Assembly: GCA_024280015.1 (NCBI GenBank)
Contig: JAJRQY010000140.1
Coordinates: 66,299-130,298 of the forward strand
Direction: 5' to 3'
DNA: 64,000 nt
Source of the DNA: Actinomycetes bacterium
GTDB taxonomy: Bacteria; Actinomycetota; Acidimicrobiia; Acidimicrobiales; SZUA-35
Shown here: positions 54,890 to 64,000 of the stretch, piece after piece
Position numbering within the stretch: the stretch's first letter is position 1
How the letters are laid out: each line of letters opens with the position of its first letter
The notes under the pieces: model-generated
Told to the model about the DNA's origin: nothing
What the model saw: the letters and a program-made list of their open reading frames with translations, nothing else
The model's database searches: none
Made by a program: the position numbers and the translations under genes

Positions 54890-55417
54890 TTAGGGGAGTG
54901 GTGCCAAACGCTTCACCACGAAACCAAGCGCGGTGCCGAGAACCGCTCCGGCGGCTACGTCTGTTCCGTGGTGCATGCGAGCGTGGACTCGACTGGTTCC
55001 GACGATGAACGAAGCAGCCAACCAGACTGGTCGAAGGCCTGGTATAGCCTCGCTCAGCAGAACTGCGGCCATGGCCGCCGAGCTGGCATGGCCACTGGGG
55101 AAACTGGAGGTCTTTGGTCGTCGCAGTTTTGGCGCCCCTTCAATCAGATCGGGGCGTTCTCGCTTGAACAGGGGTTTGATCATGGCGTTGACCAAGACTG
55201 ACTCGACCCCCAGGGCAACGGTTAGGCGGGCGGCCTGGGGACGCAGACTTGGGCTGGCGGCTGCCATGCCCAGAGAAACAACATGCCAACAGGCCGAGAA
55301 TTCTGCAGCGTGGCTCGCGGCATAGAAAACACGGTCGGCCAGGGGATTGCCGCGTAGTGGAGCAAAGGCTCGTTCCGCTCGTTCATCAATCTCCCCAGCC
55401 AGACTGCGTAACCTCAC
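54890..55417 (-). CDS. PAP2 family phosphatase
   Basis: KRERP...PSGH...SRVHARMHHGTDV tripartite acid-phosphatase motif. Confidence 0.8.
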   Translation of the reverse strand: MRLRSLAGEIDERAERAFAPLRGNPLADRVFYAASHAAEFSACWHVVSLGMAAASPSLRPQAARLTVALGVESVLVNAMIKPLFKRERPDLIEGAPKLRRPKTSSFPSGHASSAAMAAVLLSEAIPGLRPVWLAASFIVGTSRVHARMHHGTDVAAGAVLGTALGFVVKRLAPLP

Positions 55418-55421
55418 CCTG

Positions 55422-56321
55422 TTAGGTCCACTGTCCCATCAGCTTGGCAAACTCGTCTGCTGGACTAGCAGGGACGATGTAGCCCTCTTCGTTATTGATC
55501 GCGTCCCAGTCATCACGAACAGTCTCGACGGTGATGTCCTGGCCCCGAGCGGTGCCTTCGGTTAAGCCAATGAAGTACTTGGCGATGGTTCCACCAGCGG
55601 CGGAGTAGACGCAACCTGTGGTCTCGCAGTCTTCATGAGCCAGGTAAACAACCACGGGGGTAACCAGCCTTGGGTCAAGCTGCTCGGACATGGCGCCAAG
55701 CAATTCTTCGGTCATGCGGGTTTTGGCTACCGGAGCAATGGCGTTGGCCCGGATGTTGTACTTGGCTCCTTCTTGGGCCAGAACTCGGGTGAAGCCGACA
55801 AGGCCCATCTTGGCTGCGCCATAGTTGGCCTGACCAAAGTTGCCGAGCAGACCCGAGCTGGACGATGTGTTGACAATGGCTCCCGATCCTTGCTCGCGCA
55901 TGCGGATCCAGGCTGGCTGGGTGACATACATGGCACCACGCAGATGAACGTCGAGGACCAGAGTCATCATCTCTTCGGTCATATTGTGGAAGCTCTTGTC
56001 TCGCAAGATTCCGGCATTGTTCACCACAATGTCTATCTGACCAAAGGCGTCTATTGCGGTCTGCACGATGGCTTCGCCGCCTTCCTTGGAAGCAACAGAG
56101 TCTCCATTGGCTACAGCCTCGCCACCAATGGCTTCAATTTCCGCCACGACTTCCTCGGCTGGGCTCTTGGAACCGTCGCCGGTGCCGTCCACCGAGCCAC
56201 CAAGGTCGTTGACAACAACTCGGGCGCCCCGGCGGGCAAATTCCAGAGCATGTTCACGGCCGAGACCGCCACCAGCACCAGTGATGATTACTACTTTTCC
56301 TTCAAATCCGAGTTCTGCCAT
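55422..56321 (-). CDS. SDR family oxidoreductase (MFE-2-type 3-hydroxyacyl-CoA dehydrogenase-like)
   Basis: GKVVIITGAGGGLGREHALEFARRGARVVVNDLGG, NNAGI, and the YGAAK catalytic motif. Start at ATG 56321. Confidence 0.85.
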   Translation of the reverse strand: MAELGFEGKVVIITGAGGGLGREHALEFARRGARVVVNDLGGSVDGTGDGSKSPAEEVVAEIEAIGGEAVANGDSVASKEGGEAIVQTAIDAFGQIDIVVNNAGILRDKSFHNMTEEMMTLVLDVHLRGAMYVTQPAWIRMREQGSGAIVNTSSSSGLLGNFGQANYGAAKMGLVGFTRVLAQEGAKYNIRANAIAPVAKTRMTEELLGAMSEQLDPRLVTPVVVYLAHEDCETTGCVYSAAGGTIAKYFIGLTEGTARGQDITVETVRDDWDAINNEEGYIVPASPADEFAKLMGQWT

Positions 56322-56439
56322 CATTCTCTCCGCTTGTGACCCCAAAGGGGGTTGTTTGTCCGATGGCGTGAGCATAGATCGGTCAAGGGAGAACGAGCCA
56401 GATCAGGACTTGAAGTTCCTCGTCCTCTCGTTGGACGGA

Positions 56440-57477
56440 TCAGTTCTCGTCTGGTTCGGGCAGCCCGATGCAGACCATGCATTGTTGCTCAAAGGATGTG
56501 GCCAGGGCGGCTTCTCGGTCGGCTTCGGATTGGTAGGTTGGTTGATCATTGCGAGGGGTTCGGGTGTCGCCACCCGTTGACGCACTGGTTCCCTCAACAG
56601 TGGGTGAATGTTTGGCATCTTGACCTTGTCGGGTCCAAGACAAGGGATCCTGCTTCCAGTCGTCGTCAATCCAGCGATAGGGGAGTTGGGTCAGACCTGG
56701 CTCGGTCATGGTTAGTGCCGCCTGTAGTGCGTCGACAAGAATCGATCGTTGGGTTGGGGCATCCGCCATCGGACCAGACGTGTGGCCAAGCGGTACATCG
56801 AGGAAGGCGGTTCTTGGAGGGTTGGCCCGTTCGGTGATGGAACGAGCAGAAGATAGGCCAATGGTGGGGAAGCCGTTGGCTTCGAGGTGACGTGCGATCA
56901 GACCGACCGACTGGTGGCAAACCGGTCAAACGGGCACCAGCAGCACGAGGTCGGGTTCTTGCGCTTTCACCTGGGCAAGTATGTGCTCGGCAGTCTCGGC
57001 CATCAGTCGTCTGGTCGAGTAGATGCCGCCCATGAACCCGACAGCCTGGGGTGCCACCGCTGCGATGGTTCCGTCCTCGGCCAGATCCCGCAACCGGTCA
57101 AGGGGAAAGACACAGTTTGGATCCTGGGAAGCATCGGTCCAGTCATAAGCGAAATGGTTGATTCGCAAGTCGGCGGACGGCGTTTCAGCGGGGATCAGGC
57201 GGATGGAGGTGTCGTCCTTGGTGTGGAGGGCGACCTGGCCTCGCACATAGATCCCTCCCGAACCAATCAGCATGACGGTGCATTCGGACAAGGGCTTGTC
57301 AACGGGAACGAAGGCTGGTGTCTCGCTCCGCTCGGCCCAGGCATAGTCGGGGTAACCGAGACCTCCATACAATTTCTTGGTTTCAGCGATGTAGTCCGGG
57401 GCCGGCAGCGCCGATAATCCGGCAAGGACCTCACCGATAGTTCCTGGTGTCTCCGTTGTGTTACTCATCTGGCTCAC
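56440..57477 (-). CDS. GrdB/PrdB-family (glycine/sarcosine/betaine/D-proline reductase component B-like) protein, predicted selenoprotein with in-frame UGA at codon 184
   Basis: ORFs 56926..57477 and 56440..56769 are in the same frame, and I found no other stop between them. My translation across the junction is DLVLLVPV-U-PVCHQSVGLIARHLEANGFPTIGLSSARSITERANPPRTAFLDVPLGHTSGPM. The TGA falls in a U-x-x-C redox motif and the downstream sequence remains protein-like. Confidence 0.7.
56926..56928 (-). other. Predicted selenocysteine (UGA) codon
   Basis: The only stop in an otherwise open 346-codon frame. It sits at the first position of UPVC. Confidence 0.65.
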
Positions 57478-57490
57478 TTATTTGGATCGT

Positions 57491-59146
57491 CTAATCGAGG
57501 TCCGGGGCGTTCTCCGCCGCATAGGTGGACCATTTTTTGTAGTCAATCTTGCCATTGGCGGCTCGAGTTAAGGACTCAACCAGCAAGATCTGCTTGGGGG
57601 CCTTGTAGTGAGCGAGTGATCCCTTGACGTGATCAATGAGTTCGGTTGGGTCAACAGTGGAACCCGCACGATTCTCGACTACAGCGACGACGCGCTGGCC
57701 GAACCGGTCGTCGGGCACGCCGACCGCGATGGCGTCTTCGACATCTTCACTGGTCTTGAGCGCTTCTTCGACCTCTTCAGGGAACACCTTCTCGCCACCG
57801 GTATTGATACAAACGGAGCCTCGGCCGAGCAGGCTGATGGTGCCATCAGCCTCAACCGTTGCGTAGTCACCGGGAAGTGAATAGCGGACCCCATTGATGG
57901 TGGGGAAGGTTGCTTCGGTCTTGGCTTCATCCTTGTAGTAACCGACCGGCAATGTGCCCTGCACACCCAGGCGACCGAGGTCGCCGGATCCTGGCTTGAC
58001 CAGTTCGCCGTCGTCTCGAATAACCACTGCTCGATCTCCAAGGTCGAATTTGGCGGTAGTGGAGATGTTCTCTTTGGTGGAGAAGCTGGCCCCCATCCCA
58101 AGAGCCTCTGATGAGCTGAGGGCGTCATAGATCATCATGGTTGGCATATGGTCCAGCAAGCGTTCCTTGATGTCCTGGCTCCACATGACACCGGAGCTCA
58201 TGATGAGTTTGACCGAGGACAGGTCCCAATGATCAGGGTTGGCATCGAGCGCTTCCAGGATCGGTCGGGCGAACACGTCACCAACGATGACCAAGTTAGA
58301 CACCGAGTTGTTTTCGATGGCGGTCAGCAATTCGTCAACGTCATAGGCGCGCTGGGTCAAGGTCACAACCGTGCCGCCTTGGGTGAGTTGGCTGAGGCTG
58401 GTGATCTGACCGGTTCCGTGCATAAGGGGGGCACCAGGAAGGCCAACCGGACCAGCGGAGTCAGCCAAGGTGGCTCGCCACTGCTCCATCGTGACGTCGG
58501 GCCCGAGGGGGAGCGGATGAGTACGCGATCCCAACATGAGTAGGTCATGCTGGGTCCACATGACGCCCTTTGGCATGCCGGTTGTTCCGCCGGTGTACAA
58601 GAACCACAGATCGTCTCCTGAGCGGCCCCATGCAGCAGAAACGTTGTCCTCGGTGCCAGCAGCGCACGCGTCTTCCCAGGGCGTGGCCCATTCGGGGCAT
58701 GGCTCAGAGCCGTCCTCGACATGCAGCCAAAGCTTGACCTTGGGGCATCGCTCGCGGATGGTCTCGATAGTCGGCGTGAAGATGCCATGGAACATGACAA
58801 CGGCGGCATCGGAGTTGTCCCAAAGATAGAGCAACTCGTTCTCGGCGTAGCGGTAGTTGGTGTTGACGGGAACCAGAGAATCCTTGAAGCAGGCGAATAC
58901 GCCCTGCAAGTACTCTGGGCAGTTGTAGAGGTACTGGGCGACCTTGTCTTGGCGTTCGACCCCGGCATCCAGCATGGTCTTGGCCAGGCCGTTGGCTCGA
59001 CGATTGAAGTCAGTCCAGCTGATCTTGTCGTCGCCGTGTATCTGGGCCAGTTTGTCACCCCGCACTTCGGCACAGGTTTCCCACAGGTCTGCGTAGTTCC
59101 ATCCGGTCATAGGCACGGTGTAGCCGATGAGTGAGTCATCCGTCAC
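57491..59146 (-). CDS. Acyl-CoA synthetase (AMP-binding, FadD-like)
   Basis: LYTGGTTGMPKGVMW AMP-binding motif. GDYA...DGT and the C-terminal KAP...GKIDY motifs. Start is GTG 59146 or ATG 59110. Confidence 0.85.
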   Translation of the reverse strand: MTDDSLIGYTVPMTGWNYADLWETCAEVRGDKLAQIHGDDKISWTDFNRRANGLAKTMLDAGVERQDKVAQYLYNCPEYLQGVFACFKDSLVPVNTNYRYAENELLYLWDNSDAAVVMFHGIFTPTIETIRERCPKVKLWLHVEDGSEPCPEWATPWEDACAAGTEDNVSAAWGRSGDDLWFLYTGGTTGMPKGVMWTQHDLLMLGSRTHPLPLGPDVTMEQWRATLADSAGPVGLPGAPLMHGTGQITSLSQLTQGGTVVTLTQRAYDVDELLTAIENNSVSNLVIVGDVFARPILEALDANPDHWDLSSVKLIMSSGVMWSQDIKERLLDHMPTMMIYDALSSSEALGMGASFSTKENISTTAKFDLGDRAVVIRDDGELVKPGSGDLGRLGVQGTLPVGYYKDEAKTEATFPTINGVRYSLPGDYATVEADGTISLLGRGSVCINTGGEKVFPEEVEEALKTSEDVEDAIAVGVPDDRFGQRVVAVVENRAGSTVDPTELIDHVKGSLAHYKAPKQILLVESLTRAANGKIDYKKWSTYAAENAPDLD

Positions 59147-59168
59147 ATCGAGACGGGGTACTCATCGG

Positions 59169-60860
59169 TTAATCCCGTTCTTGGGAGAGCGCTTGAGCGG
59201 CCGCGTAGTCCGTCCAGCGTTGATAGCTGATCTTCCCGTTGGCCGCCCGTTCAAGCGAATCGACGACGAGGACCAGGCGAGGTGCCTTGTAGTGAGCAAG
59301 ATCGGACTTGACCTGGTTGATGGCCGCTTTGGTGTCCAAACCAGCTGGCGCATGAACAACCGCAGCAACTGTTTGGCCAAATCGGTCGTCGGGAATACCA
59401 ACGACGATGGCGTCACGGACTGTGTCTACGCGTTTGAGTGCTTCTTCTACTTCTTCGGGGAACACCTTCTCGCCCGCGGTGTTGATGCAGACTGAGCCTC
59501 GTCCCAACAGGTTGATGGTTCCGTCGTTCTCAATGGTGGCGTAGTCGCCGGGAATGGAGTATCGGATGCCGTTGACCGTCGGAAACGTGACGGCTGTTTT
59601 GGCGTCATCCTTGTAGTACCCAATCGGGGTGTGGCCCTGGACGCCGATTCTTCCGACGACTCCAGACCCGGGAACGACCAGGCTGCCATCGTCGTCGATG
59701 ACAACAGCGTTGACACTGAGCTTGAACGAAGCGGTGGCGGCGGCGGAGTCTTTGGAAGACACCGACGAGCCAACACCAAGAGCTTCCGATGACCCGTAAG
59801 CGTCGACGAGGATGAGCCGCGGATAGTGACCCAGAATGCCCTTCTTTGTCTCATTGCTCCAGATCACGCCGCTGGACAAGATGACGCGGAGTGAGGACAG
59901 GTCCCATCGGTCCGGCTCAGAATCGAGAGCATCAAGGATGGGGCGAGCAAAGGCGTCACCGACGATGAAGATGCTCTTGACTTGCTGGGCGGCGATGGTT
60001 TCCAACAACTCGGCAATGGAGAGCTTTCGTTCGGTCAGGGTGATAATCGAGCCTCCGAGCGAGAGGCTGTTGGCGCTATTGATCAAGCCGGTCCCGTGCA
60101 TCAGGGGGCAGGCGGGAATGCTGGCCGGTCCTGGTCGAGAAAGAACTCGGTCGCGTACCGCAGGAGAAAATCGCTCGCCTGTGCTGGCCTGCTCATGATC
60201 TGGTTTGGCCGGCAGACTGTCGCCGTTTGGACCATCGACGACCAGGAACAGATCGTCTTGACGCCACATGACACCTTTTGGCATCCCGGTTGTTCCTCCG
60301 GTGTAGATCAGAACGAGGTCATCACCACTCCGACCTTGCCGGCATCGAACAGCCCCGTCGGAAGGCGTGCCGCCGGCAACCCTGCTATCGGTACTTGTGG
60401 TGACCGCCTGCTCATAGGGAGTGGCCCAGTCAGGGCAGGGCCCGGATTGGTCGTCGACCCAGAGCCAGGTGTGGATCTTTGGAACTTCGCTTCGGAGGGA
60501 TTCGATGGTCTGAGTGAAGGCCCCATGAAAGACAACGGCGACGACATCGGCGTCCTCCCACAGATATGTCAACTCGTCCGGGCCGTAGCGATAGTTGGTG
60601 TTGACGTGAACAAGAGATGCTTTAGAGCACGCGTAGAACGTCTCCAAGTACTCAGGTCCGTTGTAGAGGAAGAACGCGACCTTGGCCTGATGGCCGCAAC
60701 CAGCGTTGAGAAGAAACTGAGCCAAGCAGTTGGCTCGATCGTCGAATTGCTGCCAAGTAACCGAGTGTTCGCCGTGCAGGAGAGCGGGTTTGCTTGGTTG
60801 GAGTTTGGCGAGAGTTTCCCAGATGTCGGCGTAAGTCCAGCCGGTTTCAACTTGCTTCAT
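59169..60860 (-). CDS. Acyl-CoA synthetase (AMP-binding, FadD-like), tandem paralog
   Basis: IYTGGTTGMPKGVMW. Collinear similarity to the downstream paralog from TGWTYADIWE to GKISYQRW. Start at ATG 60860. Confidence 0.85.
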   Translation of the reverse strand: MKQVETGWTYADIWETLAKLQPSKPALLHGEHSVTWQQFDDRANCLAQFLLNAGCGHQAKVAFFLYNGPEYLETFYACSKASLVHVNTNYRYGPDELTYLWEDADVVAVVFHGAFTQTIESLRSEVPKIHTWLWVDDQSGPCPDWATPYEQAVTTSTDSRVAGGTPSDGAVRCRQGRSGDDLVLIYTGGTTGMPKGVMWRQDDLFLVVDGPNGDSLPAKPDHEQASTGERFSPAVRDRVLSRPGPASIPACPLMHGTGLINSANSLSLGGSIITLTERKLSIAELLETIAAQQVKSIFIVGDAFARPILDALDSEPDRWDLSSLRVILSSGVIWSNETKKGILGHYPRLILVDAYGSSEALGVGSSVSSKDSAAATASFKLSVNAVVIDDDGSLVVPGSGVVGRIGVQGHTPIGYYKDDAKTAVTFPTVNGIRYSIPGDYATIENDGTINLLGRGSVCINTAGEKVFPEEVEEALKRVDTVRDAIVVGIPDDRFGQTVAAVVHAPAGLDTKAAINQVKSDLAHYKAPRLVLVVDSLERAANGKISYQRWTDYAAAQALSQERD

Positions 60861-60927: not shown

Positions 60928-63900
60928 GTGAACAAACCGATCAAGAAGCTTCTCGTTGCTAACCGGGGCGAGATCGCCATCCGCATATTCCGAGCGGCCT
61001 ATGAGCTTGGAATCGAAACAGTCGCCATTTTCACCTGGGAGGATCGCCAATCGCTGCATCGACTCAAGGCCGATGAGGCTTACCAGATCGGAACGGTTGG
61101 CCACCCGTTGCGGCCATATCTTGACATCGACGAGATCATTCGAGCGGCACTGGCCGCCGATGCCGATGCGGTGCATCCTGGCTATGGCTTCTTGTCTGAA
61201 AGCCCAGAGCTTGCCGATGCCTGTGTCGCAGCAGGGCTTGTCTTTGTCGGACCACCGGGTCAGGTTTTGCGGTTGTGCGGCAACAAGATGAGGGCCCGGG
61301 CGCTGGCCTATGCCGCCGGTGTCCCTGTGCTGCAGCAATCCGAAGAGGTCACCGCGGAAACGGCGCTGGCCGCAGCCGAGCCGATTGGCTTTCCGATTTT
61401 CGTGAAGGCGGCCTCGGGTGGCGGTGGGCGAGGACTCAGGCGGGTTGATGATCCGGCCGACCTTTCAGCCGCGGTTGCGATGGCGCGTCGCGAAGCAGAA
61501 ACGGCTTTTGGAGACCCCACCGTCTTCTTGGAACAAGCCGTCATTGAACCTCGCCATATTGAGGTGCAGCTTGTTGGCGATGGTGAGGAGATTGTCCATC
61601 TCTTCGAGCGGGACTGTTCGGTTCAGAGGCGGCATCACAAGGTGGTTGAGATCGCGCCAGCGCCAAACCTTGATCCGGCGATTCGTGACCAGATGTGTTC
61701 TGAGGCGGTGAAGTTTGGGCATCACATCGGCTATGTCAACGCCGGAACCGTTGAGTTCTTGTTGCAGCAGGATGGTTCGTTTGTCTTTATTGAGATGAAT
61801 CCGCGCATCCAGGTTGAACACACGGTGACAGAGGAGACAACAGGAGTTGACCTGGTTCGTACCCAGATTCGGATTGCTGCCGGCGAATCCTTAGCCGGCG
61901 TTGGGCTGACGCAGGATTCGATACATCAGCAAGGTGCGGCACTGCAGTGTCGTATCACCACCGAAGATCCGGCCAACGACTTTCGGCCTGACACTGGCCG
62001 GATTCTGGCTTTTCGTCAGCCTGGTGGGGCCGGCATTCGCCTGGACGGCGGCGGCGGGTATTCCGGTGCGGAGATCACCCCATACTTCGATTCCCTCCTG
62101 ACCAAGCTCACGTGCCGAGGTCAGACTTTTGACGAGGCGGTTGCCCGATCCCGCCGAGCATTGGCTGAATTTCGTGTTCGTGGTCCTGCGACCAATATCG
62201 CCTTCATTCAGGGGGTCCTGGATTCCGAAGAGTTCAAGGCCGGGGGAGTAACAACCTCGTTCATCCAACGTCATCCTGAACTACTGAAAGCGAAGGAGGG
62301 CGGAGACCGGGCAACCAAGCTGCTTCGTTGGCTCGGTGACGTAACGGTGAATCGCCCCAACGGTGAAGGTCAGGGATGTGAGGATCCGACGAGCAAGTTG
62401 CCGCCCCGGCCGACGGTGGAGCCGGTTGCTGGTTCGAAACAGCGTCTGGACGAACTCGGCCCCGAAGCCTTTGCTACCTGGATGCGTCAATCGAAGCAAC
62501 TCCTGGTTACCGACACCACACTACGAGACGCCCACCAGTCAATCTTGGCCACCCGGGTCCGGACCTTTGACCTGGTAGCTGGGGCGCGGCATGTCGCCCA
62601 TCGCAGCCCCGGCCTGCTGAGCCTGGAATGCTGGGGTGGAGCGACCTATGACGTTGCGCTCCGCTTCTTACATGAGGATCCGTGGGAGCGTCTGGAGCGG
62701 CTTCGCGCTGCTGCTCCAAATATCTGTCTGCAGATGTTGTTGCGTGGCCGCAATACCGTTGGCTACTCGGCTTACCCCGATGTGGTGGCCGAGCGTTTCG
62801 TGGCCGAGGCGCACCGAACGGGAGTCGATATCTTCCGAGTATTTGATGCCCTCAACTCCGTGGAGCAGATGAAGCCAGCCATCGATGCCGTTGGGTCCGT
62901 CGGGGCGATTGCCGAAGGAACCCTTTGTTACACCGGCAATCTGGAAGACCCCACCGAGACCCTCCACACCCTTGACTACTACATGGGCATTGCCGAGCAA
63001 TTGGTTGAATCCGGCGTCCATGTGCTGTGTATCAAGGACATGGCTGGGCTCTTGCGACCTGGGGCCGCGCATCGTCTGGTTACTGCCTTGCGTGAACAGT
63101 TCAGCCAGATACCCGTGCATCTGCACACCCACGACACTGCTGGTGGGCAACTGGCGACCTACCTATCTGCATCCATGGCTGGAGTCGATGCCATTGATGC
63201 CGCGGCAGCACCATTGTCGGGGATGACCTCGCAGCCTTCCATTGCCGCGGTAGCCGCAGCTTTTGAGCATTCTGACGTCGAACCGGCGATCAGCCTGGAC
63301 GGCCTCGGCTTCTTGGAGCCGTTCTGGGAGGCCACCCGGCGGGTGTATGCCCCATTTGAGGCTGGCCTGTCCGCGCCGACCGGAACCGTCTACCAGCACG
63401 AAATCCCCGGGGGTCAGCTCTCAAACCTGCGCCAACAGGCGATTGCGGTTGGCCTCGGTGAACGGTTCGAGGACATCGAAGTGCTGTACGCGGCCTGTGA
63501 CCAGATGCTTGGTCGCATCATCAAGGTCACACCAACCTCCAAGGTGGTCGGTGATCTGGCCCTACAGTTGGCCGCCTCGGGACTCACTGTTGCTGATCTG
63601 GTGGCTGATCCCGCTTCCACCGATCTTCCTGACAGTGTGGTTGGGTTCCTCCACGGCGAACTGGGTGAGCCAGCGGCTGGATTTCCCGAACCATTCCGCT
63701 CGGCCGCTCTTGTTGGTCGACGGCCGCGGTCGACTCCGGAATCCTTGAGCGACGAGGACCTGCAAGCACTGGCTGGACCTGACGTTCGTGCTGCCCTCAG
63801 TCGCTTGCTCTTCCCCAAACCCTTCGCCAGCTTTGAAGAACATATTGAGGACTACGGCCAGCTGTCTCGACTCTCCAGCGACCTCTTCCTCTATGGGCTT

Positions 63901-64000
63901 GAGGTCGGGCAGCAAGATGTTTCCATCAGTTTGGAGCGCGGCGTTCAGCTTCTGGTTGGGCTTGATGCCATTGGCGAACCCGATGAGCGGGGTATGCGAC
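60928..64000 (+). CDS. pyc: Pyruvate carboxylase (5' portion; continues beyond the right edge)
   Basis: Not in the ORF track because no stop falls in the window. GTG 60928 follows RBS GGGAGGA. The translation starts VNKPIKKLLVANRGEIAIRIFRAAYELGIETVAIF (biotin carboxylase domain). It continues through the carboxyltransferase domain (LLVTDTTLRDAHQS...CIKDMAGLL...HLHTHDTAG). Confidence 0.92.
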   Translation, partial: MNKPIKKLLVANRGEIAIRIFRAAYELGIETVAIFTWEDRQSLHRLKADEAYQIGTVGHPLRPYLDIDEIIRAALAADADAVHPGYGFLSESPELADACVAAGLVFVGPPGQVLRLCGNKMRARALAYAAGVPVLQQSEEVTAETALAAAEPIGFPIFVKAASGGGGRGLRRVDDPADLSAAVAMARREAETAFGDPTVFLEQAVIEPRHIEVQLVGDGEEIVHLFERDCSVQRRHHKVVEIAPAPNLDPAIRDQMCSEAVKFGHHIGYVNAGTVEFLLQQDGSFVFIEMNPRIQVEHTVTEETTGVDLVRTQIRIAAGESLAGVGLTQDSIHQQGAALQCRITTEDPANDFRPDTGRILAFRQPGGAGIRLDGGGGYSGAEITPYFDSLLTKLTCRGQTFDEAVARSRRALAEFRVRGPATNIAFIQGVLDSEEFKAGGVTTSFIQRHPELLKAKEGGDRATKLLRWLGDVTVNRPNGEGQGCEDPTSKLPPRPTVEPVAGSKQRLDELGPEAFATWMRQSKQLLVTDTTLRDAHQSILATRVRTFDLVAGARHVAHRSPGLLSLECWGGATYDVALRFLHEDPWERLERLRAAAPNICLQMLLRGRNTVGYSAYPDVVAERFVAEAHRTGVDIFRVFDALNSVEQMKPAIDAVGSVGAIAEGTLCYTGNLEDPTETLHTLDYYMGIAEQLVESGVHVLCIKDMAGLLRPGAAHRLVTALREQFSQIPVHLHTHDTAGGQLATYLSASMAGVDAIDAAAAPLSGMTSQPSIAAVAAAFEHSDVEPAISLDGLGFLEPFWEATRRVYAPFEAGLSAPTGTVYQHEIPGGQLSNLRQQAIAVGLGERFEDIEVLYAACDQMLGRIIKVTPTSKVVGDLALQLAASGLTVADLVADPASTDLPDSVVGFLHGELGEPAAGFPEPFRSAALVGRRPRSTPESLSDEDLQALAGPDVRAALSRLLFPKPFASFEEHIEDYGQLSRLSSDLFLYGLEVGQQDVSISLERGVQLLVGLDAIGEPDERGMR

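What the first reader, a model, noticed from the sequence alone, without database searches (positions are those of the whole stretch)
55422..60860. Unusual operon: two acyl-CoA synthetases, an orphan GrdB-like (seleno)protein and an MFE-2-type SDR, with no GrdA/C/D/E or PrdA partners
All four genes are co-directional with short gaps (22, 13 and 118 nt). Canonical GrdB works with GrdE, selenoprotein A and GrdC/D. PrdB works with the pyruvoyl protein PrdA. None of these partners is in the window. Instead the neighbours are CoA-activating enzymes and a 3-hydroxyacyl-CoA-dehydrogenase-like SDR. That context suggests a reductive C-X cleavage or thiol/selenol chemistry on an acyl-CoA-type substrate. 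I know of no described pathway with this composition.
Basis: inference. Interest (0 to 1): 0.6.

Follow-up and report, generated by a model that had tools for sequence, protein, structure and literature searches.

The report
Orphan PrdB-like selenoprotein beside acyl-CoA genes
The four-gene cluster is real and its "GrdB-like" gene encodes a selenocysteine enzyme from a widespread family whose function has never been worked out. The selenoprotein is an optional insert in a conserved fatty-acid-type gene block, so its link to acyl-CoA chemistry is plausible (rare natural fusions to acyl-CoA-type ligases exist) but unproven.

Summary
Two tandem acyl-CoA synthetases, a PrdB-like gene with an in-frame TGA, and an MFE-2-type SDR lie head to tail on the minus strand. 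The gaps are 22, 13 and 64 nt, not 118.

The TGA is a genuine selenocysteine codon. It aligns with Cys in homologues, all 80 related loci examined carry TGA there, a SECIS-like hairpin follows it, and the genome has SelA, SelB, SelD and tRNA-Sec.

The protein is not D-proline or glycine reductase. It scores 157 bits against a PrdB cut-off of 300, and no PrdA/GrdE or GrdA match was found in the genome. It belongs to the stand-alone "PrdB" UxxC family already listed in marine selenoproteome surveys, function unknown. This scan has found the same family before on other DNA.

The exact operon recurs only in the nearest Acidimicrobiales. A genome of the same family keeps FadD-FadD-SDR-PAP2 contiguous without the selenoprotein, so the selenoprotein is dispensable for that block.

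Across the family, only a crotonase neighbour is enriched after correcting for lineage. Two deeply divergent natural fusions of an adenylate-forming ligase to a PrdB-like domain support some link to acyl activation.

Verdict: interpretation partly supported, mechanism inferred only.

The parts
59169..60860 (-). FadD-a, an acyl-CoA synthetase (AMP-binding); a tandem paralogue of FadD-b, 55% identical
   Evidence: Pfam PF00501 plus PF13193. NCBIfam NF005863/PRK07798 scores 585 bits against a cut-off of 543. An alternative upstream ATG lies at 60986.
57491..59146 (-). FadD-b, an acyl-CoA synthetase; its stop codon lies 13 nt before the selenoprotein start
   Evidence: NF005863 scores 617 bits against a cut-off of 543. 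The closest solved relative is feruloyl-/fatty-acyl-CoA synthetase at 122 bits.
56440..57477 (-). PrdB-like stand-alone selenoprotein, 345 aa, with Sec184 in a V-P-V-U-P-V-C-H-Q motif (stop codon included)
   Evidence: Read-through translation. TIGR04483 scores 157 bits against a cut-off of 300; PF07355 scores 28.6 bits. The protein is 39% identical to an annotated PrdB, with the UxxC motifs aligned. The AF2 model has pLDDT 89 and places U184 at a strand-to-helix junction.
56926..56928 (-). UGA selenocysteine codon
   Evidence: The codon aligns with Cys in full-length homologues, and truncated database entries end exactly here. TGA occupies this column in 80 of 80 related loci. Contigs from runs of two other studies cover the site, and no difference is listed there.
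56894..56918 (-). SECIS-like hairpin, +10 to +34 from the U of UGA; weaker here than in relatives
   Evidence: The stem is conserved across 79 distinct sequences, with compensatory changes (UA to CG in 7, GC to AU in 4) and a GUN loop. The window copy has 3 mismatches in the canonical register. The single-sequence fold is not better than shuffled controls. Rfam gave no match.
56470..56481 (-). C-terminal CxxC motif (C333-M-V-C336) on the tail of the selenoprotein
   Evidence: A CxxC motif is present in the tail of 72 of 81 subfamily members. The four Cys-form homologues of this subfamily shown in full (P0002, P0003, P0006, P0018) lack it.
55422..56375 (-). MFE-2-type SDR, resembling (3R)-hydroxyacyl-CoA dehydrogenase
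   Evidence: PF00106. PDB 1gz6 (17-beta-HSD4/MFE-2) scores 273 bits over residues 19-294; 2et6 gives E = 3.8e-128.
54890..55417 (-). PAP2 phosphatase; follows the SDR after 4 nt and is part of the conserved backbone
   Evidence: PF01569. It is syntenic in L009, L010 and G263.
60928..63999 (+). Pyruvate carboxylase, the divergent upstream neighbour (runs off the window)
   Evidence: Pfam biotin carboxylase and PYC_OADA domains. It is syntenic in L009 and L010 at 72-73% identity.

Best explanation
The middle gene encodes a stand-alone, pyruvoyl-independent member of the GrdB/PrdB fold. It probably works through a selenocysteine-cysteine redox pair (U184/C187), perhaps recharged by a conserved C-terminal CxxC tail.

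I infer that it performs a two-electron reductive step on a carboxylic acid that an adjacent adenylate-forming ligase has first activated as a CoA thioester. The product would then enter a crotonase / (3R)-hydroxyacyl-CoA-dehydrogenase type of beta-oxidation.

In this genome the gene sits, probably co-transcribed, inside an older FadD-(FadD)-SDR-PAP2 block. It acts as an accessory to that block, not as a core part.

Shown: gene order, Sec recoding, family placement, lack of canonical partners in the window, variable synteny, crotonase enrichment, and ligase fusions.

Inferred: the redox cycle, the CoA-thioester substrate, and co-transcription.
For: - Sec recoding is secure.
- The UxxC motif lies at a strand-to-helix junction in a confident model and aligns with the UxxC of an annotated PrdB.
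- The alignment shows 24 invariant columns and about 53 more that are at least 90% conserved, many of them polar. This suggests a specific substrate pocket.
- The FadD-to-selenoprotein spacing is tight here (13 nt), and the same order is kept in L009, L010 and L012.
- Crotonase genes lie within 1.5 kb in 7 of 23 lineage groups, against 1 of 59 control zones at 4.5 kb or more. They occur in several orientations and are only 33-38% identical to one another.
- Co-directional pairs occur in other lineages: ACAD then selenoprotein (a 'delta proteobacterium' clade), selenoprotein then SDR (Binatia), selenoprotein then ligase (L014), and selenoprotein then crotonase (G182).
- In the paralogous subfamily the commonest neighbours are SDR, AMP-ligase, ACAD, CoA-transferase III, a CitE-like lyase and crotonase.
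- Two ligase::PrdB-like fusion proteins (805 and 813 aa) are 34% identical end to end.
Against: - G263 (same family, SelA present) has FadD-a, FadD-b, SDR and PAP2 contiguous with a 63-nt junction and no selenoprotein. G123 keeps its FadD pair and SDR 390 kb from its selenoprotein.
- Weighted by lineage, AMP-ligase, SDR and ACAD are not enriched next to the gene.
- The one enriched partner, crotonase, is missing from the window's cluster.
- Most lineage groups have unrelated neighbours: a gyrB-like gene, ParA, GcvT, ferritin.
- Cys-form relatives on plasmids sit beside SelO or an aminotransferase.
- The fusions belong to the other subfamily, and their ligase is only about 21% identical to FadD-b.
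- The fusions are rare: one cluster has a single member and the other has four.
- These taxa are rich in acyl-CoA genes.
- No transcript data are available, and there is no structural or biochemical precedent.
Confidence: 0.42

Rival explanations
1. The protein is a general thiol/selenol oxidoreductase, a redoxin-like or stress-related enzyme with no pathway-specific tie to its neighbours. On this reading the gene simply landed in, or was retained in, a conserved FadD-SDR-PAP2 block. The acyl-CoA neighbours elsewhere would reflect how common such genes are in these bacteria.
For: - The block exists intact without the gene in G263, and the two modules are unlinked in G123.
- Most lineage groups show unrelated neighbours.
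- The genome's second paralogue lies directly downstream of a Sec-glutathione peroxidase.
- A ferritin/Dps gene lies nearby in three gammaproteobacterial lineage groups.
- A Roseomonas Cys form is convergent with SelO.
- Selenoproteome surveys class the family among thiol-redox proteins with UxxC (PMC1088965).
- ACAD, SDR and ligase genes are not enriched after lineage weighting.
Against: - Crotonase enrichment survives lineage weighting.
- Ligase fusions in two deeply divergent lineages are hard to explain for a generic redoxin.
- GPx adjacency is not conserved (0 of 80 loci).
- The many conserved polar residues outside UxxC suggest a defined small-molecule site.
Confidence: 0.35
2. The protein is a true component of D-proline or glycine/sarcosine/betaine reductase, with partners encoded elsewhere in the genome.
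For: The protein shares homology across almost the whole PrdB model (positions 17-235 of 238) and is 39% identical to an annotated PrdB.
Against: - The PrdB score is 157 bits against a cut-off of 300. The GrdB/F/H scores are 27-35 bits against cut-offs of 602-800.
- No PF09338 (PrdA/GrdE) or PF04723 (GrdA) match was found in a 96.6%-complete genome.
- The protein has N- and C-terminal extensions that the 237-aa PrdB lacks.
- The family occurs in hundreds of genomes from lineages that are not Stickland fermenters.
Confidence: 0.03
3. The TGA is a real stop or a sequencing error, so the region holds a decaying pseudogene or two unrelated ORFs.
For: The window's SECIS-like hairpin is weaker than in relatives and folds no better than shuffled sequence. 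The window protein sits on a long branch.
Against: - Conserved sequence continues for 160 residues past the TGA.
- TGA occupies the same column in 80 of 80 loci.
- Contigs from two other studies cover the site, and no difference is listed there.
- The full Sec machinery is present.
Confidence: 0.03

Closest known systems
Environmental 'proline reductase PrdB' UxxC selenoprotein family (pfam07355), from the Sargasso Sea and GOS selenoproteome surveys (PMC1088965, PMC2398784); annotated by NCBI as 'glycine/sarcosine/betaine reductase selenoprotein B family protein'
   Same: Both have an in-frame TGA in a UxxC motif, a GRDB Pfam domain, rarer Cys homologues, and occurrence in non-clostridial bacteria. 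This is the family to which the window gene belongs.
   Different: Those surveys list the family under the proline reductase name and give no function or gene context. The ligase, crotonase and SDR context and the ligase fusions described here do not appear in the literature I could search.
D-proline reductase subunit PrdB (TIGR04483), for example in Peptoclostridium acidaminophilum and Clostridium sticklandii
   Same: Both share the core fold by sequence (39% identity over 204 residues), with an aligned U-x-x-C-H motif.
   Different: The window protein scores below the equivalog cut-off (157 against 300). No PrdA pyruvoyl partner was found. The protein is 345 aa against about 240, with an N-terminal extension and a C-terminal tail carrying CxxC.
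Glycine/sarcosine/betaine reductase protein B (GrdB, GrdF, GrdH)
   Same: Both match Pfam PF07355, and both carry a Sec-containing redox motif.
   Different: Only the C-terminal third of the GRDB model matches. Scores are 27-35 bits against cut-offs of 602-800. No GrdA or GrdE match was found.
Beta-oxidation modules built from an acyl-CoA synthetase and an MFE-2-type dehydrogenase
   Same: The two ligases pass the PRK07798 acyl-CoA synthetase model. The SDR resembles the dehydrogenase domain of MFE-2/17-beta-HSD4. The same ligase-ligase-SDR block recurs in related genomes, in one case among ACAD and crotonase genes.
   Different: Such modules are not known to contain a selenoprotein. In this genome and its closest relatives one is inserted between ligase and SDR.

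Membership tests
D-proline reductase PrdB (TIGR04483 equivalog) | Score at or above the curated equivalog cut-off (300 bits) | tested here: not met
   The score is 157 bits, covering model positions 17-235 of 238.
D-proline reductase PrdB (TIGR04483 equivalog) | Sec (or Cys) in a U-x-x-C motif aligned with that of PrdB | tested here: met
   The pairwise alignment with an annotated PrdB puts the two UxxC-H motifs in register.
D-proline reductase PrdB (TIGR04483 equivalog) | A pyruvoyl proprotein PrdA (Pfam PF09338) encoded next to the gene | tested here: not met
   All neighbours in the window were scanned. They are ligases, an SDR, PAP2 and pyruvate carboxylase.
D-proline reductase PrdB (TIGR04483 equivalog) | PrdA/GrdE family present somewhere in the genome | tested here: inconclusive
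   PF09338 gave no match in the 96.6%-complete genome, but no control genome matched either.
Glycine/sarcosine/betaine reductase protein B (GrdB/GrdF/GrdH) | Score at or above the curated cut-offs of TIGR01917, NF040794 and NF040795 | tested here: not met
   Scores are 27.1, 32.6 and 35.2 bits against cut-offs of 602, 800 and 775.
Glycine/sarcosine/betaine reductase protein B (GrdB/GrdF/GrdH) | Selenoprotein A (GrdA, PF04723) in the genome | tested here: inconclusive
   No match was found, and the control genomes were silent too.
GRDB superfamily (Pfam PF07355) | Pfam gathering score reached | tested here: met
   The score is 28.6 bits against 22, for the C-terminal part of the model only.
Stand-alone environmental 'PrdB' UxxC selenoproteins | In-frame TGA aligned with Cys in homologues, with conserved sequence beyond it | tested here: met
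   TGA is present in 80 of 80 loci.
Stand-alone environmental 'PrdB' UxxC selenoproteins | A bacterial SECIS-type hairpin just downstream of the UGA | tested here: met
   A conserved stem with compensatory changes occurs across 79 sequences. The window copy is weaker, with 3 mismatches.
Selenocysteine-decoding organism | SelA, SelB, SelD and tRNA-Sec present | tested here: met
   SelB scores 271 bits, SelA 419 bits and SelD 375 bits with its own TGA. ARAGORN found tRNA-Sec.
Acyl-CoA synthetase, NF005863/PRK07798 subfamily | Score at or above the curated cut-off (543 bits) | tested here: met
   The two ligases score 585 and 617 bits.
MFE-2-type (3R)-hydroxyacyl-CoA dehydrogenase | Close sequence similarity to the dehydrogenase domain of MFE-2 / 17-beta-HSD4 | tested here: met
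   1gz6 scores 273 bits over residues 19-294, and 2et6 gives E = 3.8e-128. Stereospecificity cannot be tested here.
Operon (one transcript) | Co-transcription of the four genes | not testable with these tools
   No RNA run was listed. The promoter and terminator scan was uninformative.

The most novel reading that the evidence does not exclude
Stand-alone PrdB-like selenoproteins are among the most abundant selenoprotein families in ocean metagenomes. They may be a new class of pyruvoyl-independent reductases that act on CoA thioesters. On this reading, an adenylate-forming ligase activates a carboxylate. The Sec/Cys pair then carries out a reductive C-X cleavage alpha to the thioester, or a thiol-driven enoyl-CoA reduction. 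The product then feeds a crotonase / (3R)-dehydrogenase route.
Probability: 0.2. Interest if true: 0.8.

Novelty: new variant of a known kind. Interest (0 to 1): 0.5.

Why it matters
The "PrdB" selenoprotein has ranked among the top families in marine selenoproteomes since 2005, yet no study I could find explains its role in bacteria that lack proline reductase. This locus offers a concrete, testable lead when taken together with the crotonase enrichment and the natural ligase fusions. The fusions are Cys forms, so they should be easy to express. The lead is to look for a dithiol-dependent reaction on ligase-made CoA thioesters. If the lead fails, the family would fall back to a generic redox role and the cluster here would be a synteny accident.

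Tried and rejected
A Cys homologue returned only GRDB clusters.
- Rfam gave no match near the UGA.
- The single-sequence fold of the SECIS region was not better than shuffles.
- The promoter and terminator scan was uninformative.
- No RNA holder was listed among sequencing runs, so co-transcription could not be tested.
- The PDB sequence search found nothing. Foldseek found nothing below 1e-3. The VIA wide search gave only generic alpha/beta folds, best Z 8.2.
- The word-based 'longer' homologue search found no fusions. The exhaustive HMM search did find them.
- GPx adjacency of the paralogue looked like a redox clue but is not conserved (0 of 80 loci).
- Greedy ORF maps of these high-GC loci were too noisy to use.
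- Pooling ligase, SDR, ACAD and crotonase genes gave only about a 2-fold lineage-weighted excess. I therefore do not claim that pooled enrichment.
Full report
ANATOMY

Five genes run head to tail on the minus strand.
- FadD-a: 59169-60860.
- FadD-b: 57491-59146.
- A 345-codon frame: 56440-57477, interrupted by one TGA at 56926-56928.
- An SDR: 55422-56375.
- A PAP2 phosphatase: 54890-55417.

The gaps between them are 22, 13, 64 and 4 nt. The interrupted frame ends at the TGA at 56440-56442. Pyruvate carboxylase is transcribed divergently from 60928.

Both ligases pass the NCBIfam acyl-CoA synthetase model PRK07798, at 585 and 617 bits against a cut-off of 543. They are 55% identical tandem paralogues.

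THE SELENOPROTEIN

Reading the TGA through gives a V-P-V-U-P-V-C-H-Q motif.
- Full-length homologues carry Cys at that column, and truncated database entries end exactly at V-P-V.
- All 80 related loci fetched from species-representative genomes have TGA there.
- A hairpin at +10 to +34 after the UGA is conserved in 79 distinct sequences. It has a GUN loop and compensatory changes (UA to CG in 7 sequences, GC to AU in 4). The window's copy is weaker, with three mismatches.
- The genome encodes SelA, SelB, a Sec-containing SelD and tRNA-Sec.
- Contigs from runs of two other studies cover the site, and no difference is listed there.

The TGA is therefore a selenocysteine codon.

FAMILY PLACEMENT

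The protein aligns with nearly the whole PrdB model but scores 157 bits against a cut-off of 300. The GrdB, GrdF and GrdH models score 27-35 bits.

It is 39% identical to an annotated PrdB, with the UxxC motifs in register. It also has an N-terminal extension of about 57 residues and a C-terminal tail of about 85 residues. The tail ends in a CxxC motif found in 72 of 81 members of its subfamily.

No PrdA/GrdE-family or GrdA gene was found in the window or the 96.6%-complete genome. The control genomes were silent too, so genome-wide absence is not positively controlled.

A confident AF2 model (pLDDT 89) places U184 at a strand-to-helix junction. No solved structure is related by sequence or by fold beyond generic alpha/beta sandwiches.

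The family is large. The exhaustive search found 3981 cluster representatives at E up to 0.001. At least 586 species genomes matched the pattern scan.

The literature already lists the family as 'proline reductase PrdB, UxxC'. It is among the most abundant selenoprotein families of the Sargasso Sea and GOS data sets (PMC1088965, PMC2398784). Non-clostridial bacteria such as Anaeromyxobacter and Geobacter are also listed with a 'proline reductase' selenoprotein (PMC1794560), though I did not check that those belong to this family. Recent reviews still describe only the clostridial enzyme (PMC9312934, PMC13188914). Earlier reports of this scan reached the same placement on other genomes.

This genome has two further Sec-containing paralogues, each about 32% identical to the window protein.

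IS THE OPERON CONSERVED?

Only among the nearest relatives. Three Acidimicrobiales loci carry the same order, with one ligase only:
- L009 and L010: pyruvate carboxylase (divergent), FadD, selenoprotein, a convergent crotonase, SDR, PAP2.
- L012: FadD then selenoprotein, after which the contig ends.

This is broad synteny that includes genes with no plausible functional tie. The fourth member of the clade (L011) keeps only the crotonase.

Two genomes are decisive.
- G263, of the same family and carrying SelA, has FadD-a (64% identical), FadD-b (64%), SDR (69%) and PAP2 (63%) contiguous. A 63-nt ligase-SDR junction separates them, and there is no selenoprotein.
- G123 has the ligase pair and the SDR inside a beta-oxidation cluster, 390 kb from its own copy of the selenoprotein.

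The ligase-SDR-PAP2 backbone therefore works without the selenoprotein. The selenoprotein is a facultative insert, or has been lost from some lineages.

IS THERE ANY WIDER LINK TO ACYL-COA METABOLISM?

De novo clustering of neighbours in the 80 loci showed crotonase (35 loci), SDR (18) and ACAD (13) as the recurrent families. The remainder is lineage-specific synteny.

I grouped the loci into 24 lineage groups at 72% identity and compared equal-sized zones.
- Crotonase lies within 1.5 kb in 7 of 23 groups, against 1 of 59 control zones at 4.5 kb or more.
- ACAD, SDR and ligase genes show no lineage-weighted excess.

The crotonases are 33-38% identical to one another and occur in convergent, divergent and co-directional arrangements. 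This looks more like repeated association than one inherited pair. The window itself lacks this crotonase.

In a paralogous subfamily (77 of 78 loci with TGA), the commonest neighbours are again SDR, AMP-ligase, ACAD, CoA-transferase III, a CitE-like lyase and crotonase. I have no far-zone control for that subfamily.

The exhaustive profile search also found fusion proteins. A complete AMP-binding ligase is joined to a PrdB-like domain in P0083 (805 aa) and P0226 (813 aa). The two are 34% identical end to end, so the architecture is old or has arisen more than once.

The fusions are rare and belong to the other subfamily. Their ligase is only distantly related to FadD-b.

Other contexts point elsewhere:
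- a Sec-GPx upstream of this genome's second paralogue, which is not conserved;
- a ferritin gene in some gammaproteobacteria;
- SelO or an aminotransferase beside plasmid-borne Cys forms.

MECHANISM

Shown: a Sec/Cys pair in the position used by PrdB, no pyruvoyl partner found, and many conserved polar residues.

Inferred: a selenenylsulfide redox cycle, possibly relayed by the C-terminal CxxC. It would act on a substrate whose carbonyl is activated as a CoA thioester by the neighbouring ligase. On this reading the thioester, in place of the PrdA pyruvoyl adduct, would stabilise the carbanion formed on reductive cleavage. I put this at about 0.4.

A generic thiol/selenol oxidoreductase with an accidental location is nearly as likely, at about 0.35.

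VERDICT

The selenoprotein family is known but uncharacterised. The specific four-gene unit is not conserved. What appears to be new is the crotonase association and the ligase fusions, which make the family's function testable.

The class-level tally of 63 of 301 genomes includes one unpublished genome (G212). No other claim rests on it.

Noticed in passing
L089:6443-6922 and L089:6944-7774 (own genome, contig C3): Two selenoprotein genes lie in tandem. The first is a glutathione peroxidase with Sec in a V-A-S-A-U-G motif. A second PrdB-like Sec paralogue, about 32% identical to the window's, follows directly. This adjacency was absent from 80 related loci.
   Followed up: yes
L090:6225-7235 (own genome, contig C155): A third PrdB-like paralogue has TGA in V-P-V-U-P-V-C-H-V. 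It is divergent from an AraC/DJ-1-type regulator. Its function is unknown.
   Followed up: partly
L126 (own genome, C58:4240-5163): The selenophosphate synthetase SelD of this genome itself carries an in-frame TGA.
   Followed up: no
window 56470-56481 and the tails of L009-L088: A C-terminal CxxC motif is present in 72 of 81 Sec-form members of the subfamily. The four Cys-form homologues of this subfamily shown in full lack it. This may be a redox relay tied to Sec use.
   Followed up: partly
L025:6214-11776 and about 15 other Binatia loci: Lineage-wide synteny runs as follows: a NuoF-like gene, a NuoG/molybdopterin-like gene, an Exo_endo_phos gene, the PrdB-like selenoprotein, then an SDR. 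All are co-directional. The flavin/Fe-S proteins could be electron donors.
   Followed up: partly
P0109 and P0123 (proteins): Other fusions of the PrdB-like domain exist. One has an N-terminal Ser/Thr protein kinase domain (480 aa). Another has an N-terminal HTH_3 domain (495 aa).
   Followed up: no
window 57778-59464: One low-depth contig of run X2 joins FadD-b to FadD-a and skips 1685 nt, close to the paralogue spacing of 1678 nt. It may be a single-ligase recombinant variant or an assembly chimera.
   Followed up: no
L218:6965-9350 (Roseomonas plasmid): A Cys-form PrdB-like gene lies convergent with the protein adenylyltransferase SelO, a redox-linked enzyme.
   Followed up: no
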